From IMG/VR virus record IMGVR_UViG_2778261251_000001: a stretch of 29,693 nt of DNA, one strand, 5' to 3'. Shown here piece after piece: positions 1,371-29,693 of the stretch. The notes below the pieces were generated by a model that saw only the letters and a program-made list of their open reading frames with translations, made no database searches and had not been told where the DNA came from. Position 1 is the first letter of the stretch, and the number at the start of each line of letters is the position of its first letter. Position numbers and translations under genes: made by a program. The DNA is from a virus (lineage: Duplodnaviria > Heunggongvirae > Uroviricota > Caudoviricetes).

Positions 1371-1952
1371 ATGAACAACTCATGGTGGCAGGAACTAATG
1401 CATTTTTTCCTGCAAGGAATGACACTTAAACAGTTGATTCATATGCTAATCATCCTGATCATATTGATTATTGTTATGCCGGTAAGCGTAAAAGAATGGA
1501 TAAACCTGCATAATCCAGAAATCCTTCCTCATTACTGGATGTATTACATCCTGTTGTTTTGCGTTAGCTATGTGCTTAACGGCGTTGTTAATTCCGCTTA
1601 TCACGCTGTGACTGAAAGAATTGAGGTATTCGCTGCTCAGAAGCGCAAATCTAAAGAAGAGAAATACGTGCAAGATTTGTTTGATTCGTTAACTCTTGGA
1701 GAAAGAGCGTATTTGGCACTCGCTGTAGTCGCTAATAACCAGCTACAAACGGAAAAGGGAAGCCCTGAAGCAATCTCATTGCTCGAAAAAGGGCTTCTTA
1801 TTCGGATACCTTCTGCTACTGGATATCCTGAAATCGACCGTTTTGTTATCCCAGAACGCTATAGAAATGAGTGCTACATTAGGTTTGCTGGGAAGAAAGA
1901 CAGTCTTATGGATGAACTTATCGCTCAGGATAAGCACGGCAAAAACAAGTAA
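1371..1952 (+). CDS. sieB: superinfection exclusion protein SieB-like, membrane protein, 193 aa
   Basis: 193-aa ORF with N-terminal hydrophobic segment (LIHMLIILIILIIVMPV); recalled similarity to lambda/P22 SieB; sits between ral and N, convergent with N. Confidence 0.7.
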   Translation: MNNSWWQELMHFFLQGMTLKQLIHMLIILIILIIVMPVSVKEWINLHNPEILPHYWMYYILLFCVSYVLNGVVNSAYHAVTERIEVFAAQKRKSKEEKYVQDLFDSLTLGERAYLALAVVANNQLQTEKGSPEAISLLEKGLLIRIPSATGYPEIDRFVIPERYRNECYIRFAGKKDSLMDELIAQDKHGKNK

Positions 1953-1968
1953 TTAGCAAATTAATTTA

Positions 1969-2241
1969 TCATCTCGCCGTCAGTTGTTTTGATTTCCGGT
2001 AGCCTGCCGCGTAAATAGCTACGTTTGGCAGGCAAATACTTCCACTGCATTCATCTGCCTTCTTGCAGCGAAGGCTTCCGAGTGATGCTGCTTTATCTGC
2101 TCTGACGCAACCAGAGAGCTTTAGCGCAATTTTTCGCGCCAGTCGCTGTTCTTGCATTGCCTGTTCACGTTGAGCCTGTCTGCGTGCTCTGCGGCGATTT
2201 CTGGCGTTATCGTCAGCCAGATATGTAATGACTACTGTCAT
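1969..2241 (-). CDS. N: antitermination protein N-like
   Basis: 90-aa ORF with arginine-rich motif (NARNRRRARRQAQREQ) near the N-terminus and a C-terminal VAIYAAGYRKSKQLTAR resembling P22 gp24; directly downstream of a boxA/boxB nut site on the same strand. Confidence 0.8.
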   Translation of the reverse strand: MTVVITYLADDNARNRRRARRQAQREQAMQEQRLARKIALKLSGCVRADKAASLGSLRCKKADECSGSICLPNVAIYAAGYRKSKQLTAR

Positions 2242-2348
2242 GTTGACCTCCGATGATTGACTTTGGCGGTGACGCGCCGGGTGCTTATCTTCCGGTTGCC
2301 GTCGTGCAGCTGCACTTCACATCACCCCAAAGCCAACTACTCTTTGGT

Positions 2349-2389
2349 TCCCGCATTTCGGCGGGACAATCCCATCAATGTTAAAGAGC
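2349..2389 (-). promoter_or_regulatory. nutL (boxA GCTCTTTAACA plus boxB hairpin CCCGC-CGAAAT-GCGGG)
   Basis: Read on minus strand: boxA-like GCTCTTTAACA (plus 2379-2389) followed by an inverted repeat (plus 2349-2366); the same boxB sequence recurs downstream of cro on the plus strand. Confidence 0.6.
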
Positions 2390-2436
2390 CTGCCAATCTG
2401 TTCCGTTTGGCTACCAGCGTCCTGCTGATGGCTAAA

Positions 2437-2522
2437 GAATACTGTAGGTATTTTATTGTGTAAATACCCAGGGTATTTATTTTTGATGAAATAATGATAA
2501 ACAGATGAATACAAAGGATATT
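2437..2522. promoter_or_regulatory. OL operator cluster / pL region: three AATAC-N5-GTATT-type sites
   Basis: Sites at 2438-2452 (AATACTGTAGGTATT), 2462-2478 (perfect 17-bp palindrome AAATACCCAGGGTATTT) and 2508-2522 (AATACAAAGGATATT, degenerate); located between the cI operon and N as expected for OL/pL. The pL -35/-10 hexamers were not assigned. Confidence 0.55.
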
Positions 2523-2608
2523 TATTTTTTCGGTATCTGCTTGTTCAGTGCTTTTTATGCGGGATATGTGAAGTGGATCCCGATAGCTATTGCTGCCGGG
2601 ATTATGGG

Positions 2609-2977
2609 TTAGTCAGCGAAGGTTAAGACGAGAATTACCTTAATGATGTCTGCTACAACAGACACGGCCACAGATAAACCAAAGACGATCCAAGCCATAG
2701 AGATGTCTTCACTACCATCGTATAGAGTTCCGTAATCACTGGTGTAAGGCGTAAATGTCGCGCCTTGATACAACAGGTATAAGCTTGATCCATAGAGGAT
2801 AAATGCAGATATCCCTTGTATTGCTATGACCACTAGAATCATGAAACGAGCTGATCTATGCGCCCAAGCCTGGCTTATTTTTTCTGATAGAGATTTCGCA
2901 ATAAAAGCATGCGCTAAGCCGTAAATTGTTGAGATTGCCAACATCCCAAAAAAGCTTGCTATAGCGGTTCCAACCAT
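2609..2977 (-). CDS. small integral membrane protein (3 predicted TM segments) co-transcribed downstream of cI; function unknown
   Basis: 122-aa ORF starting 19 nt after the cI stop with an AGGGGGA Shine-Dalgarno; three long hydrophobic stretches; occupies the rexA/rexB position of lambda. Confidence 0.6.
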   Translation of the reverse strand: MVGTAIASFFGMLAISTIYGLAHAFIAKSLSEKISQAWAHRSARFMILVVIAIQGISAFILYGSSLYLLYQGATFTPYTSDYGTLYDGSEDISMAWIVFGLSVAVSVVADIIKVILVLTFAD

Positions 2978-2996
2978 AAGCGTCCCCCTTGCGTGA

Positions 2997-3713
2997 TCAA
3001 ACCAGCCTTAGTTTTGTCTCAATTGCAACGCCTATAATCTTGCAGTTTCCATTGATTGGCACGAGAGGCCATGCAGGGTTAAGTCCCTTGAGGTATTTAT
3101 TTCCGCCGTCGATTATCAGCTTCTTGAATGTTGCTTCGTTAGAGTCAGAAAGTTTTGCTATGACCAAGCTGCCGTTGATCGCCTCCCTTCCGGTATCGAA
3201 AAGAACGAATGTTCCCTCTGGAATGCTTAACCCAACCGGTGCCGTCATTGAATCACCTTCCACTTTAAGCCAGAACGCATTACCTTGAATATGCGCGTCA
3301 GACTCAAGCCAAACATCTATGTCTTTAATGGTGTATGGTTCGCATGCTTCACACCACGAGCCAGCCTGGATACTGCTTAACACCGGATACCTCTTTCCTG
3401 CTCTGTATTCCCCTGCATACCTTACGTTGGCATCGCTCTTAAGGCTTTCTGCCTGTTCTGCAACCTTGGCAGCAATTGACTGGCTAAAATCAGCAATTGA
3501 GACTTGCAACAAACGTGCAAAACCAGATGCGACCTCAACGTTTAGCGCGTTTCTGCCATTAAGATAATGCCCTACCGCTCCTTGGGTGATACCCAGTTCA
3601 TCAGCGATTGAGTATTGGGTTATTCCCAATTCTTTCTTTTTTGACTCATACAAAGCCTTAAGCCGCTTAGCGTCTTCGAGCTGTTCTGTCGTCAGTGATT
3701 TTTTATTTTCCAT
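2997..3713 (-). CDS. cI: CI-type prophage repressor (HTH N-domain plus LexA/S24-like autocleavage C-domain)
   Basis: 238 aa; N-terminus KKSLTTEQLEDAKRLKALYESKKKELGITQ resembles lambda CI; an Ala-Gly in SIQAGSW, a GDSM serine motif and FKKL lysine motif fit the S24 self-cleaving fold; no Shine-Dalgarno upstream, so a leaderless pRM-type transcript is plausible. Confidence 0.9.
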   Translation of the reverse strand: MENKKSLTTEQLEDAKRLKALYESKKKELGITQYSIADELGITQGAVGHYLNGRNALNVEVASGFARLLQVSIADFSQSIAAKVAEQAESLKSDANVRYAGEYRAGKRYPVLSSIQAGSWCEACEPYTIKDIDVWLESDAHIQGNAFWLKVEGDSMTAPVGLSIPEGTFVLFDTGREAINGSLVIAKLSDSNEATFKKLIIDGGNKYLKGLNPAWPLVPINGNCKIIGVAIETKLRLV

Positions 3714-3747
3714 AGCTTAATTCTAATAGCTAAGGTACTTAAACTAA

Positions 3748-3790
3748 AAATACCCTGAGTATTGATTGCTTTGAATACCTGTAGTATTCT
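3748..3790. promoter_or_regulatory. OR operators with pR/pRM: two AATAC-N5-GTATT sites and a candidate pR (-35 TTGATT, -10 TATTCT)
   Basis: AATACCCTGAGTATT at 3749-3763 and AATACCTGTAGTATT at 3774-3788 in the divergent cI/cro intergenic region; candidate -35 at 3762-3767 and -10 at 3785-3790 with a 17-nt spacer. Confidence 0.55.
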
Positions 3791-3819
3791 TTGTTCATGG
3801 TTAATAACGGAGAGTGCAT

Positions 3820-4014
3820 ATGATTCGAATGACACTTGCCGATTACGCCAAAATCCATGGACAGGCTAAAGCAGCCAGTGACTTTGGTGTAATCCAGTGC
3901 GCTATCAGCAAGGCCATTCTGGCAGGCCGTAACATTATGGTTACGGTAAAGCCTGATGGCAGTGTGATTGGAGAGGAAGTTCGTCCTTTCCCAAGCAACA
4001 AGAAAAACAAATAG
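3820..4014 (+). CDS. cro: Cro repressor
   Basis: [39 protein letters not shown]...FPSNKK aligns by eye along its whole length with lambda Cro; GGAG 7 nt upstream of ATG 3820 (the track's 3814 start is a GTG). Confidence 0.85.
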
Positions 4015-25807: not shown

Positions 25808-27079
25808 ATGGCTAGTTGGCAACAAGGAATCAACTCAGGCGGCTTTCTTGCTGGTATCGGTGGGCAAAACTCAAATGCGCCAAAGGCAAGTGATGTAAGT
25901 GAGGCGTTGGCCTATATTCGCCAGAACAACGAAATGGAGCGCTCAGGTCGCAATAACATCGGCCTTCAGGCGTTGCAGGGGCCTGGTAGTGTCGCTCAAA
26001 CATATCAAGCCGCAAAGCAACAGGAAGCGGGTGCTGCATTCCAAAAAGAATATGCGGCAGCCATCCAGTCAGGTGATCGGCAGCAGGTGCGAGATCTGAT
26101 GACCAAATATCCTGGTCAATTAGAGAAGATTCAGTCTGGTATGAAGTGGGCAGACGAAGACCAGCGCAATTCTATCGGCACCTTAGCGGCTGGCGCACGC
26201 CTTGCGTCATCGTCTCCAGAAGCAATGCAATCATGGCTGCAAAACAACGCCAAGGAACTGGCGCGCGTCGGTGTTGACCCTAACAGCGTTGCTCAGATGT
26301 ATCAGCAAAACCCTTCAGGATTTGGTGAGTTTGTTGATCACCTTGGAATGGCTGCTCTTGGTCCGATTGATTACTTCAATGTTCAGGACAAGATGGTTGG
26401 TCGCCAGCAGGATCAACAAAGAATTAACGAAACAATCCGTAATAATGACATGACAAATGCCAGAGGGTGGGCAAGCAACAATATTGCGCAACAAAATGTC
26501 AATCTTCGTCGGATGGAATTAGAGGACAAGAAATACGACAGACTCATCGCAAATGAAACTAATGCCTTAAAACTTGCTGAATTGCAGGACAAGAGATTGC
26601 AGAATCAGCAAGCTATGGAGCAGGCAAAGCGAGATAAGGCCGATGCGTACAACTCTGGAATGGATAATCTCTCCAGAACGATAGAGACGGCTACAAAAGT
26701 TCTTAATAGCCCAGGATTCACGGGATATTTCGGAACAAACCTAAACCCACTATCGAGTAGATTCATTCCAGGAACAGAGGCTGCTGATACAGAAACTCTG
26801 GTTGACACACTGAAATCTCAGGGATTCTTATCTGGCATTCAGCAGATGAAAGGGATGGGGGCTTTAAGTAATGCCGAGGGGCAAAAGGTAATGGATGCTA
26901 TTGGTAGTTTGTCCCCAAATCAGTCTGAAAAATCAGCCAGAGCAGCTATCAAAACAATCATAAAAACCACTGAGATGGCTCAGAAACGTATGCAACAGAA
27001 ATACGGGAAGGACATACAACCGTCTCAACAGCAGCTTTCTGATGATGACCTGATTAATAAATATCTCGGAGGGCAGTAA
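25808..27079 (+). CDS. ejection protein gp20-type
   Basis: 423 aa; order and size match P22 gene 20. Confidence 0.75.
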
Positions 27080-29193
27080 TGACCTATAGTCGCGAACAGT
27101 TGATGACGGCGTTAAGGAATGCTGATGCTGCCGGCGATACTGAGGGAGCACGTCGCATTGCTCAGATGCTGTCTTCTGGTGATCAATCCACTCAAAACCA
27201 ATCGCAGCCAGAAGAACAATCTCTGGTAGGAAAAGCCACTGACTGGCTCACTGGTGGTCAAAGCGCAGGGCAAATTGCAGAACAGGCTGGCCGTGGTCTG
27301 GTAAACATACCATTTGACGTATTGCAGGGTGGCGCAAGTCTGATTAATGCAATCAGCCAGGGGCTTGGTGGCCCCAAGGTTTTGGATGATGTCTATCGTC
27401 CAGTCGATCGACCGACAGACTCTTACGCACAAGCCGGTGAAACAATTGGTGGGTATCTCCTGCCAATTGGCACAGCGGCAAAAGCTGCTGGAGCGCCAGC
27501 AAAGCTCGCAGGAGACATCGGTTCCGCAGGAAACATGATTGCCGGTTCTCTTGCTGATGCTGCAAATCAGGAGGGTGATTTTGCACAAAATGCTGCCATT
27601 AACGGTGGTATCAATATTGGTGCTCAAGGCGTTCTTTCAGGTGTCGGGCGCGTTATTGCGCCAAGGGTTTCACAGGCTCTTGGTGGTGCAGCACTGAATT
27701 CTGCTAATGATGTTTCCAGGATGGCAAAGTCAGGTGCTGGGCGTCAGTCAATTGCCAGTCAGGCCGCTAATGTGTCCGAAGATGTAGCAAAAGCGGCTGA
27801 GTCTGCTGGAATTGATATAAACGCATTAACACCAGGAATGCGATCTGGAAGTCGTGGAATTGCACAAGCCGAAGGCGCATTGGCATCAACACCAGGGATT
27901 GTTCAGGATGCCCATCAGGCAGCATTTAACGAAATATCATCAAAGTTAAGTCGAAACCTTGATGAATTTGGGGCCGCATCTGGAACGGCATCAGAAAAAA
28001 GTGCGGCTATAAAACAAAGGATTCTTCAAAATCTTGATCAGATGAAGGATGCTGAGCGCGCGGCATGGGATGACGTGCGGTCAACAATGCCAAATCAAAA
28101 AGCAAGAATGCTAAATGGTAATGCCGTTATTCAGGCAGAGCGATCTGCTGGCATACCGCTTACTCCTGAAATGAAACAGTTTGTTCAGGCAAACAATCAA
28201 GGTGGAGTAACATTTGATGGCATGAAAGCATGGAGAGCGAAATTTGCTGATGCGGAGCAAAAATATAAGCGTAGCGGAGAGGCAAATGCGGCAAGGAGAG
28301 CAGGGGAAATACGTCGGGCAATTACTGATGATATGCGCACAATGGCGGAAAACGGCGGATTTTTTGATGACTGGCAAAAAGCTAATGATCTGTCTAAAGC
28401 GAGGCTATCCGCACAAGAGAGTGCAGAGTCTGTTTTTGGGCGTGATTTGGCAACAGATGCACTGATTACGAATGGAGTAAAATCTCTTCAATCATCGTCA
28501 GCTAAAGGTCTTAATGGTCCTGCTGGATTCCATTCTATGATCCGCGCGCTGCCAGAATCAGAGCGTGTTCCTGCTATATCATCAATGTTGCAGGATGCTA
28601 TCTCGCATGGTGTACGTGGTGGCAAATCTGATGCAGCAGGAATTAACCATATCGCAGAGATACTCACTCCACAAAATGTAAAAGCCATTAGCATATATTC
28701 CTCAGAACTCGGAAGAATTGCTGATGCATATGGCACTCTTGCAAGAGCAGCAGTGAAACCTCAGCAGTATATTGAAAGAACAGGGAGAACTGCCAATGTA
28801 CTACGCGATCTGGATGCCGGTTTATCCAACGTCACATCAACAGTGTTAAATGCAATTGCCAACTCAACATCAGGTGCCATTGTTGGTGGAGCAGGAGGGG
28901 GCATTGCAGGCGCTGCCGCAGGTGCTTTAGTTGGCGCCGGGTTAAAAGGTGCTGTATCTAAAATTGCCACCACGCGTAGCGGTCGATATGCGATAGAGAA
29001 AGCAGTTCAGGAAGCCACGAAAGCAGTAAGAGCTGGCGGAAGTAAAGAAGCATTAGCGGCGGCTGAACGCAGATTTATGGCAAATAAAGCCGCCGTAAAA
29101 GCAATACGCGATGCTATTGGTAGCGATGAATTCAATCGCTTGTCGAGAGCTGGTATTGTCGCCTCGTTAAGCGGTATGAATGAATATGAATAG
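27079..29193 (+). CDS. ejection protein gp16-type
   Basis: 704 aa; large Ala/Gly-rich internal protein; last gene of the P22-type 26-14-7-20-16 block. Confidence 0.75.
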
Positions 29194-29195
29194 CT

Positions 29196-29693
29196 TTATC
29201 TAATGTTGCTGCTACTGTTGCATGTGACGGTATTCCCAAATCCTGAATTGCAGTTTGTATATGTGTCAACGCGTGTTGGGTAAGGTTGAGTTATAACAGG
29301 CTGGCGCGCTTTTTGCTCGATCGCTTGCATTGTGTTTACAGCCTGATAATTCAATAAAGCCTGCTGGAATGCTTGGCTTTGTGCTATTTGTTGGGCTTGT
29401 TCTTGGCTTTGTAATTGAACATAAAGATTCTGAAGCTCAAGTCTTGCCTGTGCGTCACTTATCTTGCCTTGATCGACACCTTGCCCGAGCATCTTCGCAG
29501 CAAGGACATACAGCTTAGGTGTTGGTGCTGATGCCATGCGTGAGTCGTTCTTCACGCTGGCATCAAGGCAATTAGCCATATCACTAAGCTTTGGATAGCG
29601 TTGCTCGCAACTTGCTTGGTAGTCACTTACTTTTGCGCATCCAGCCAGCAGAAGCGGGATAATTAATAGTGATTTTTTTATAAAGTTATTTAT
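29196..29693 (-). CDS. lipoprotein, N-terminus truncated by the window end; function unknown
   Basis: Minus-strand reading frame stays open to the window edge (...INNFIKKSLLIIPLLLAGCAKVSDYQ... upstream of the track ORF 29196..29579); lipobox LLAGC; Gln-rich helical mature region; stop at 29196-29198. Confidence 0.6.
   Translation of the reverse strand: MNNFIKKSLLIIPLLLAGCAKVSDYQASCEQRYPKLSDMANCLDASVKNDSRMASAPTPKLYVLAAKMLGQGVDQGKISDAQARLELQNLYVQLQSQEQAQQIAQSQAFQQALLNYQAVNTMQAIEQKARQPVITQPYPTRVDTYTNCNSGFGNTVTCNSSSNIR

What the first reader, a model, noticed from the sequence alone, without database searches (positions are those of the whole stretch)
2609..2977. Small three-helix membrane protein co-transcribed with cI in the rex position
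The sequence shows a 122-aa ORF with three hydrophobic stretches, starting 19 nt after the cI stop behind a good Shine-Dalgarno and ending just before the OL/pL operators. It should therefore be expressed from pRM in the lysogen. In lambda this slot holds rexA/rexB (abortive infection), and in other lambdoids it is a known hotspot for exclusion or defence cargo. This protein resembles neither RexA nor RexB in my reading, so it is a candidate undescribed lysogen-expressed exclusion or membrane-depolarising defence protein.
Basis: partly seen in the sequence, partly recalled or inferred. Interest (0 to 1): 0.72.

Follow-up and report, generated by a model that had tools for sequence, protein, structure and literature searches.

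The report
HK620 hkaS: membrane gene behind cI
The ORF is real: it is hkaS, a small three-helix inner-membrane protein gene annotated since 2001 but never characterised, which sits directly behind the prophage repressor gene and so is probably made in lysogens, making it a reasonable but untested candidate for a phage-exclusion protein.

Summary
Window 2609-2977 (-) encodes a 122-aa protein with three hydrophobic helices. It starts 19 nt after the cI stop behind an AAGGGGGA Shine-Dalgarno, and there is no promoter-like site in between. It is not undescribed as an ORF: it is hkaS of coliphage HK620 (96% aa identity, product 'unknown') and matches PHROG 6534 (unknown function) full length.

The family is a narrow orphan. 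It has no Pfam, NCBIfam, PADLOC, PDB-sequence or fold relatives, no similarity to RexA or RexB, and only two representatives among 1.84 billion proteins. Every homologue inspected (52-99% identity, from E. coli, Salmonella, Hafnia-type and metagenomic contigs) lies in the same place, between the same-immunity cI and OL/pL. cI and hkaS occur 1:1 in 146 of 5426 complete E. coli genomes.

hkaS is under purifying selection but evolves about 4-5 times faster than cI in amino acids. The charge distribution predicts an N-out/C-in topology, a conserved basic cytoplasmic loop and an acidic, variable periplasmic loop.

The function is not shown. My best inference is a lysogen-expressed inner-membrane protein that excludes heteroimmune phages. 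This follows the precedent of the characterised genes in this slot (RexAB, Stk, Hex, BstA). Confidence is moderate to low. I rate it a new member of a known kind, of moderate interest.

The parts
2609..2977 (-). hkaS coding sequence (122 aa, three transmembrane helices, predicted N-out/C-in)
   Evidence: ORF list. 96% aa identity to HK620 HkaS. PHROG 6534, E 4e-78, residues 1-122 of 122. Hydropathy. AF2 pLDDT 89.8. Charge distribution.
2983..2990 (-). Shine-Dalgarno AAGGGGGA of hkaS, 5 nt before the ATG, inside the 19-nt cI-hkaS spacer (2978-2996)
   Evidence: Read directly from the sequence. AAGGA-type SD is also present in the divergent loci L003, L007 and L021.
2997..3713 (-). cI repressor (HK620 immunity type), the upstream gene of the inferred bicistronic pRM transcript
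   Evidence: Pfam HTH_3 + Peptidase_S24. 99.6-100% aa identity to mEpX2/HK630 cI and about 99.6% (1 substitution in 238) to HK620 cI.
3720..3748 (-). Putative pRM: -35 TTTAGT (3748-3743), 17-nt spacer, -10 TAGAAT (3725-3720). The A of the cI ATG is 7 nt after the -10, so cI is probably leaderless as in lambda
   Evidence: Read from the sequence and placed relative to OR2/OR3 mapped from the HK620 annotation. This is an inference by analogy with lambda. It was not found by the consensus scan because the -35 is weak.
3724..3789 (.). OR3 (3724-3740), OR2 (3748-3764) and OR1 (3773-3789) operators
   Evidence: Mapped from the HK620 GenBank features and checked against the sequence.
2577..2602 (-). 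Hairpin AUCCCGG(C)AGC...GCU(A)UCGGGAU immediately 3' of the hkaS stop. It has no U-tract and may be a transcript 3'-end or stability element
   Evidence: RNA fold. A hairpin at the same place but with different sequence is seen by eye in L003, L007 and L021. Its role is inferred.
2497..2527 (-). tIMM as annotated in HK620 (weak stem followed by UUUAUCAUUAUUU). It overlaps the conserved distal operator-like dyad 2508-2524
   Evidence: HK620 annotation mapped to the window. Fold. Not detected by the terminator scan.
2436..2524 (-). OL/pL region: OL1 2437-2453, OL2 2462-2478, conserved third dyad 2508-2524, pL TTTACA-17-TATTCT 2464->2436
   Evidence: The three dyads are conserved in L003, L007 and L021.

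Best explanation
Window 2609-2977 (-) is hkaS, a real protein-coding accessory gene locked inside the HK620-type immunity cassette (OL - hkaS - cI - OR - cro).

Shown:
- It encodes a 122-aa protein made almost entirely of three long hydrophobic helices.
- It is conserved as a protein.
- It always directly follows this cI type.

Inferred:
- It is transcribed with cI from pRM in the lysogen (and from pRE during establishment) and translated from its own strong SD.
- It inserts in the inner membrane N-out/C-in. A conserved basic loop (res 28-44, with a short amphipathic helix) faces the cytoplasm. An acidic, more variable 22-residue loop (res 71-93, with a small beta-hairpin) faces the periplasm.

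Most likely function (inference, not shown): it protects the lysogen against heteroimmune superinfecting phages at the level of the cytoplasmic membrane. The more likely route is interference with genome or ejection-protein passage through the inner membrane, in the manner of small inner-membrane exclusion proteins such as P22 SieA. The less likely route is membrane-perturbing abortive infection without a separate cytoplasmic sensor.

The fast amino-acid divergence relative to the adjacent cI fits either an arms race or simply weaker constraint.
For: - Real gene: 122 codons without indels down to 52% identity, with 44 invariant positions among six divergent members. pN is 0.27-0.33 against a saturated pS of 0.77-0.88. 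All 12 E. coli-type alleles inspected are intact.
- Identity: it is hkaS / PHROG 6534.
- Co-transcription layout: a 19-nt gap, a strong SD, and no promoter-like or terminator-like site between cI and hkaS on that strand.
- Fixed synteny: cI -> hkaS -> OL -> N in every context examined. cI and hkaS are each found in the same number of complete E. coli genomes, 146 of 5426, at 147 places.
- Membrane protein and topology: hydropathy, AF2 model. Loop 28-44 has net charge +3 to +5 in all members, and loop 71-93 has net -1 to -4.
- Faster evolution than cI: cI/HkaS identity is 96/82, 86/59, 89/52 and 84/55%. dN is 0.34-0.44 against 0.076-0.085. Segregating sites are 10 synonymous and 12 nonsynonymous in hkaS against 20 and 3 in cI, Fisher p=0.0045.
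- Precedent: other genes carried on the pRM transcript behind cI have exclusion phenotypes. These are RexAB, 933W Stk and 434 Hex (PMC3564112) and BstA (PMC8585504; RNA-seq in PMC7067206).
- Slot cargo changes with immunity type: Sf6 gene 38, and two other ORFs in BHUENT3.
Against: - No experiment or transcript data were available, so expression and function are inferences.
- There is no similarity to any known defence or exclusion protein: PADLOC gave none, PHROGs gave only its own unknown family, RexB hhalign probability was 0.7%, and there were no informative fold matches.
- The most conserved segment is the cytoplasmic loop (71% mean pairwise identity against 52-59% elsewhere). That is not what a purely periplasm-facing injection blocker would predict.
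- Within-E. coli substitutions are mostly conservative hydrophobic swaps. This fits relaxed constraint as well as an arms race.
- 434 Hex shows that a slot gene can serve lysogen stability (PMC3564112).
- The linkage to cI is physically forced, because the gene lies between the repressor gene and its OL operators. The linkage therefore says nothing about function.
Confidence: 0.4

Rival explanations
1. HkaS is a host-fitness or lysogenic-conversion membrane protein unrelated to phage defence. Examples would be a modulator of a host transporter or sensor kinase, stress tolerance, or immunity to a pore-forming bacteriocin. It is carried on the cI transcript simply because that promoter is active in lysogens.
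For: - It has no relation to any defence model.
- It is an all-membrane small protein with a conserved cytoplasmic loop and invariant polar residues inside the helices (Q54, D110, K113, R44). That would suit binding to a conserved host membrane partner.
- omega is moderate (roughly 0.4-0.5 among close alleles), not above 1.
- From my own knowledge, not tested here: size and three-helix layout recall E1-type colicin immunity proteins and small regulatory membrane proteins.
Against: - No Pfam or NCBIfam hit to colicin-immunity or any host family, even at E<=1.
- No homologue outside this phage immunity module among 1.84 billion representative proteins.
- All characterised genes in this slot have phage-exclusion phenotypes.
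Confidence: 0.25
2. HkaS serves the prophage's own life cycle. It could stabilise lysogeny or tune induction (as 434 Hex does), or control the timing of lysis by interacting with the holin. Its three-helix N-out/C-in layout is that of class I holins, and RexB has been linked to such effects.
For: - Hex, encoded on the pRM transcript behind the 434 repressor, lowers RecA-dependent spontaneous induction (PMC3564112).
- The cI-hkaS pairing is strict and ancient, with saturated synonymous divergence in both genes.
- The predicted topology matches class I holins (plus my own knowledge of the lambda S topology).
Against: - The pairing is explained by position between cI and OL.
- HkaS has almost no soluble part that could reach RecA or cI.
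- It lacks the charged C-terminal tail typical of holins and has no holin family hit.
- The same module sits in phages with quite different lysis and virion modules: P22-like, lambda-like HK630 and Stx-type phi296. It is therefore not co-adapted to one holin.
Confidence: 0.12
3. HkaS is an abortive-infection effector that depolarises or permeabilises the membrane when triggered by a phage component. This would be a RexB-like outcome without RexA.
For: - It occupies the same slot as rexAB.
- BstA, Stk and Rex in this slot are all abortive-type systems.
- It is a small helical membrane protein with an invariant D110/K113 pair and Q54 inside helices, which could line an oligomeric pore.
Against: - It is not homologous to RexB.
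- It has three helices, not four, and no partner sensor gene. cI is 19 nt upstream and OL is downstream.
- It has no cytoplasmic domain to sense infection.
- Constitutive expression of a pore-former must be tightly gated, and nothing in the sequence suggests how.
Confidence: 0.15
4. The ORF is a non-functional or decaying reading frame that persists only because it is trapped between cI and OL.
For: - It evolves about 4-5 times faster than cI.
- Some metagenomic variants have frameshifted N-termini or truncations (P0006, P0007, P0014).
- It is an orphan family.
Against: - The exact 122-codon length is preserved with saturated synonymous sites and pN of about 0.3.
- 44 positions are invariant, including an unbroken C-terminal ILVLT motif (plus A121).
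- The SD is conserved.
- The gene is intact in all 12 alleles inspected.
- The AF2 model is confident from only six sequences.
Confidence: 0.03

Closest known systems
HkaS of coliphage HK620 (GenBank AF335538, AAK28867; PHROG 6534)
   Same: It is the same gene. Amino-acid identity is 96% and nucleotide identity of the coding sequence is 97.8% (98.4% over the surrounding 1.4-kb region). Length is the same, and so is the position between cI and OL. It is also present in HK630, HK140, mEpX2, HF4s, 611R6, two Stx2c phages and phi296/phi367.
   Different: Only a few substitutions, 5 aa against HK620. No function has been assigned in any record, and no paper in the searchable library mentions it.
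Lambda RexB (with RexA)
   Same: Same slot: downstream of cI, upstream of OL/pL, on the cI strand, and expressed from pRM in lambda. Both are small polytopic inner-membrane proteins (PMC8585504).
   Different: There is no sequence relationship (hhalign probability 0.7%). HkaS is 122 aa with three helices, against 144 aa with four (the four-helix count is from my own knowledge). No RexA-like partner is present (and the gene layout).
P22 SieA and other small inner-membrane superinfection-exclusion proteins (T4 Imm, HK97 gp15)
   Same: These are prophage- or phage-encoded small inner-membrane proteins that act alone. SieA blocks DNA delivery by interfering with ejection proteins (PMC10883804). 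This is the working model I favour for HkaS.
   Different: There is no sequence similarity: no PHROG exclusion family was hit. sieA lies elsewhere in the P22 genome (my own knowledge) and is not behind the repressor. The activity of HkaS is untested.
434 Hex, 933W Stk and BTP1 BstA (other genes carried behind the repressor gene)
   Same: They sit on the repressor transcript, are accessory, and have exclusion phenotypes (PMC3564112, PMC8585504, PMC7067206).
   Different: All are unrelated in sequence. Stk and BstA are soluble cytoplasmic proteins. Hex also stabilises lysogeny.

Membership tests
HkaS / PHROG 6534 | Full-length sequence match to the family profile | tested here: met
   phrog_6534, E 4e-78, residues 1-122 on profile positions 1-122 of 122. 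96% aa identity to HK620 HkaS.
HkaS / PHROG 6534 | Position directly downstream of the HK620-immunity cI and upstream of OL/pL | tested here: met
   Window layout. The same layout is seen in all phage, genome and metagenome contexts examined.
Lambda RexB | Sequence or profile homology to RexB | tested here: not met
   hhalign probability 0.7%, E 0.08 over 20 columns.
Lambda RexB | Paired with a RexA sensor gene | tested here: not met
   Only 19 nt separate cI and hkaS, and no other ORF lies in the slot. There is no similarity to RexA.
Lambda RexB | Ion-channel activity or depolarisation on activation | not testable with these tools
   Needs membrane-potential measurements in infected lysogens.
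pRM-cotranscribed accessory genes of lambdoid phages (the cI-to-OL slot) | Lies between the cI stop and OL on the cI strand, with no intervening promoter or terminator | tested here: met
   19-nt spacer. The scan finds only pL on that strand and no terminator between cI and hkaS.
pRM-cotranscribed accessory genes of lambdoid phages (the cI-to-OL slot) | Transcribed in the lysogen | not testable with these tools
   No transcript data were available. Inferred from the layout and from lambda, 434 and BTP1 precedents.
Inner-membrane superinfection-exclusion proteins (SieA/Imm type) | Integral inner-membrane protein | tested here: met
   In silico only. Three hydropathy peaks of 1.67 or higher, AF2 helices and positive-inside charge bias.
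Inner-membrane superinfection-exclusion proteins (SieA/Imm type) | Sequence relationship to a known exclusion family | tested here: not met
   No exclusion family in PHROGs at E<=1 and none in PADLOC.
Inner-membrane superinfection-exclusion proteins (SieA/Imm type) | Blocks DNA entry of superinfecting phage | not testable with these tools
   Requires infection assays.
Class I holins | Three TM helices, N-out/C-in | tested here: met
   Predicted topology. This is a resemblance only.
Class I holins | Charged cytoplasmic C-terminal tail, location in the lysis cassette, holin family match | tested here: not met
   The protein ends ...LVLTFAD right after helix 3. It lies in the immunity region. No holin hit in Pfam or PHROGs.
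Known anti-phage defence systems (PADLOC-DB v2) | Match to any defence protein model | tested here: not met
   0 families at E<=1.

The most novel reading that the evidence does not exclude
HkaS is a lineage-restricted, possibly de novo-born, single-gene membrane defence. Three helices and two short loops would be enough to recognise and stop heteroimmune phages at the inner membrane, by a mechanism unrelated to Rex, SieA or Imm. Its rapid divergence inside an otherwise conserved immunity cassette would then record an arms race with phage membrane-acting proteins.
Probability: 0.15. Interest if true: 0.65.

Novelty: new member of a known kind. Interest (0 to 1): 0.38.

Why it matters
HK620 is a well-used model P22-like phage. 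Its immunity cassette, always with hkaS, is present in about 2.7% of complete E. coli genomes and in podo-, sipho- and Stx-type phages. Four genes in the equivalent slot of other lambdoid phages have turned out to be exclusion systems, yet this one has stayed 'unknown' since 2001.

It is small, acts without a partner gene, and can be deleted in frame without touching cI or OL. That makes it a cheap and well-defined test case for how a minimal membrane protein could protect a lysogen. If it has no anti-phage role, it is a counter-example to the habit of reading slot position as evidence of defence.

Tried and rejected
- Remote homology. Pfam gave only sub-threshold noise (Cation_ATPase_C at 19 bits against a cut-off of 27). 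NCBIfam, PADLOC and a PDB sequence profile search gave nothing. An exhaustive HMM search of 1.84 billion representatives found only the family itself.
- Rex membership is rejected.
- TM1 as a cleavable signal peptide is rejected. There is no basic n-region. The AHA motif at 22-24 is not conserved in homologues (alignment). Positive charges follow the helix.
- A 35-aa hydrophobic ORF on the opposite strand (2505-2612, +) overlaps the hkaS stop. I rejected it as a gene. Its ATG lies inside the conserved operator-like dyad. It is frameshifted by a T6/T7 run in 3 of 12 alleles. It is absent from the divergent loci and has no family hit.
- Rfam found nothing in 2200-3900.
- Literature. No paper mentions hkaS, its accessions or PHROG 6534, and none of its accessions appears in the DefensePredictor supplements. 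Brenes and Laub 2025 (Cell Host Microbe 33:1004), a screen of E. coli prophage defences, could not be read. I could not exclude that it covers this gene.

Full report
**What is there**

The window is an HK620-like, P22-type (Lederbergvirus) prophage. Segment 2480-3000 is 100% identical to E. coli strain GF4. The best whole-window phage matches are HZ41, IME10 and HK620.

On the minus strand the genes run in this order:
- cI, 2997-3713 (HTH_3 + Peptidase_S24);
- the 122-aa ORF, 2609-2977;
- the operators and pL, 2436-2524;
- an N-type antiterminator, 1969-2241 (PF25694).

A SieB homologue lies at 1371-1952 on the plus strand. The cI stop (TGA, 2997-2999) and the ORF's ATG (2977) are separated by 19 nt. 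That spacer contains AAGGGGGA 5 nt before the ATG. One nuance: the ORF ends about 85 nt before the nearest conserved operator-like dyad and about 130 nt before OL2.

**It is a real gene, and a named one**

The ORF is hkaS of coliphage HK620 (AF335538, product 'unknown'), at 96% amino-acid identity. It matches PHROG 6534 (unknown function) end to end, with E 4e-78.

Sixteen phage records carry it, always with a cI that is at least 99% identical. They span three very different phage types:
- P22-like: HK620, 611R6;
- lambda-like: HK630;
- Stx or Traversvirus type: phi296, two Stx2c phages.

In complete E. coli genomes, cI and the hkaS segment are each found in 146 of 5426 genomes, at 147 places. 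One example inspected is an apparently intact P22-like prophage.

More distant homologues have 82, 59, 55 and 52% identity. They come from Hafnia-type, Salmonella and metagenomic contigs. All have exactly 122 residues and lie in the same place: 17-20 nt after a same-immunity cI, before three conserved operator dyads and an N gene. Meanwhile the flanking N, replication and recombination genes are swapped mosaically.

In the deep comparisons synonymous sites are saturated in both genes (pS 0.75-0.88). Nonsynonymous divergence is 0.27-0.33 in hkaS and 0.07-0.08 in cI. The frame is therefore under purifying selection and as old as the cassette. It changes about 4-5 times faster than cI. Among ten close E. 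coli-type alleles, cI has 20 synonymous and 3 nonsynonymous segregating sites. hkaS has 10 and 12 (Fisher p=0.0045).

**The protein**

Hydropathy shows three membrane-spanning stretches. AlphaFold2, using only six sequences, gives a confident model (pLDDT 89.8) with these elements:
- three long helices: 2-29, 41-73 and 89-121;
- a short amphipathic helix, 31-38;
- a small beta-hairpin in the 74-88 loop.

In every family member the 28-44 loop carries a net charge of +3 to +5. The 71-93 loop carries a net -1 to -4. By the positive-inside rule this gives an N-out/C-in topology with an acidic periplasmic loop.

Invariant residues include W38, H40, R44, Q54, the YLLY.(G)ATF..Y junction, D110, K113 and the C-terminal ILVLT motif (the last three residues are FAD in five of the six members). 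The cytoplasmic loop is the best-conserved segment (71% mean pairwise identity). The periplasmic loop is the least conserved (52%), although the helices are not much better (54-59%).

**No relatives**

Nothing was found beyond the family itself:
- Pfam, NCBIfam, PADLOC, the PDB sequence profile search and PHROGs (apart from its own family) gave nothing significant.
- An exhaustive profile search of 1.84 billion cluster representatives returned only the family itself.
- Direct comparison with lambda RexB and RexA was negative.

**Context and precedent**

The slot between cI and OL is documented as a mosaic site for accessory genes carried on the repressor transcript. The characterised examples are:
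- lambda rexAB;
- 933W stk;
- 434 hex (PMC3564112);
- BTP1 bstA, shown by RNA-seq to be transcribed from the cI promoter (PMC7067206; PMC8585504).

I confirmed that the slot's content changes with immunity type. Sf6 (434-type operators) has a 134-aa secreted protein there. Enterobacter phage BHUENT3 has a cI sharing only the C-terminal domain, and carries two unrelated ORFs in the slot.

The strict cI-hkaS linkage is explained by geometry. A gene lying between the repressor gene and its OL operators cannot be separated from the immunity cassette without breaking it. The linkage therefore carries no functional information.

**Expression signals (inferred)**

Upstream of cI I read TTTAGT-17-TAGAAT (3748-3720). 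It sits between and overlapping OR2 and OR3, with the cI ATG 7 nt after the -10. This is a lambda-like, activator-dependent, leaderless pRM. No promoter-like site lies between cI and hkaS.

A hairpin without a U-tract follows the hkaS stop (2577-2602). Hairpins of different sequence occupy the same place in the divergent loci. The terminator tIMM annotated in HK620 maps to 2497-2527 and is weak.

**Function**

Nothing here demonstrates a function. I weighed three things:
- the precedents, where all four characterised slot systems exclude phages;
- the all-membrane nature of the protein, with no partner gene and no soluble domain;
- the accelerated amino-acid evolution.

On that basis, my best explanation is a lysogen-expressed inner-membrane protein that excludes heteroimmune phages at the membrane step. 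It is more likely to block entry than to act as a depolarising abortive system. I give the anti-phage reading as a whole roughly 0.5. The specific statement in the report gets 0.4.

The rivals are:
- a host-fitness membrane factor (0.25);
- a RexB-like abortive effector (0.15, overlapping with the main reading);
- a role in lysogen stability or lysis timing (0.12);
- a decaying ORF (0.03).

One practical warning applies. Hydrophobic helical peptides can by themselves induce Rcs-dependent capsule and hence phage resistance (PMC12704755). Native-level deletion analysis is needed.

**Verdict**

The ORF is already annotated (hkaS, PHROG 6534), but it is functionally uncharacterised in everything I could search. 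It is a new member of a known kind, the accessory genes carried behind the prophage repressor. It belongs to an orphan family. Interest is moderate.

Noticed in passing
window 2484-2527: The HK620 GenBank record places OL3 at the equivalent of 2484-2500 (TGATGAAATAATGATAA). That stretch is not conserved in the divergent same-immunity loci. The dyad that is conserved in all of them is AATACAAAGGATATTTA at 2508-2524, preceded by the same AAAAATAAATA motif as OL2. It lies about 46 bp centre-to-centre from OL2, whereas OL1 and OL2 are 25 bp apart, and it overlaps the annotated tIMM. The real third left operator is probably this site.
   Followed up: partly
window 2505-2612 (+): A 35-aa very hydrophobic ORF (MNTKDIYFFGICLFSAFYAGYVKWIPIAIAAGIMG) runs antisense and overlaps the hkaS stop by 4 nt. 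Its ATG lies within the conserved operator-like dyad. It is frameshifted by a T6/T7 run in 3 of 12 alleles and is absent from the divergent loci, so it is probably not a gene.
   Followed up: yes
window 1371-1952 (+): A SieB-family superinfection-exclusion protein (PF14163, E 3.8e-24; PHROG 1301) lies on the opposite strand between N and the rest of the left operon. Its GC content is low (40%). The prophage therefore already carries one recognised exclusion gene close to hkaS.
   Followed up: partly
L009 2170-2886 (Enterobacter phage BHUENT3) and L008 2108-2512 (Sf6 gene 38): The same slot in other immunity types holds unrelated, uncharacterised cargo. BHUENT3 has a 127-aa protein with two CxxC pairs, followed by a 109-aa Gly-rich coiled-coil protein with a C-terminal membrane anchor. 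Sf6 has a 134-aa protein with an N-terminal signal sequence.
   Followed up: no
window 2577-2602 (-); L021, L007 and L003 just after the hkaS stop: Each divergent locus has a stable hairpin directly after the hkaS stop codon. The sequences differ and none has a clear U-tract. The Hafnia-type copy differs from the window by a G-to-A change that keeps pairing (G-U to A-U). This could be a 3'-end or stability element of the cI-hkaS transcript.
   Followed up: partly
window 29196-29579 (-): A 127-aa Gln-rich ORF lies on the minus strand just after the large gene-16-like ejection protein ORF (27079-29193). It has no transmembrane segment and was not examined further.
   Followed up: no
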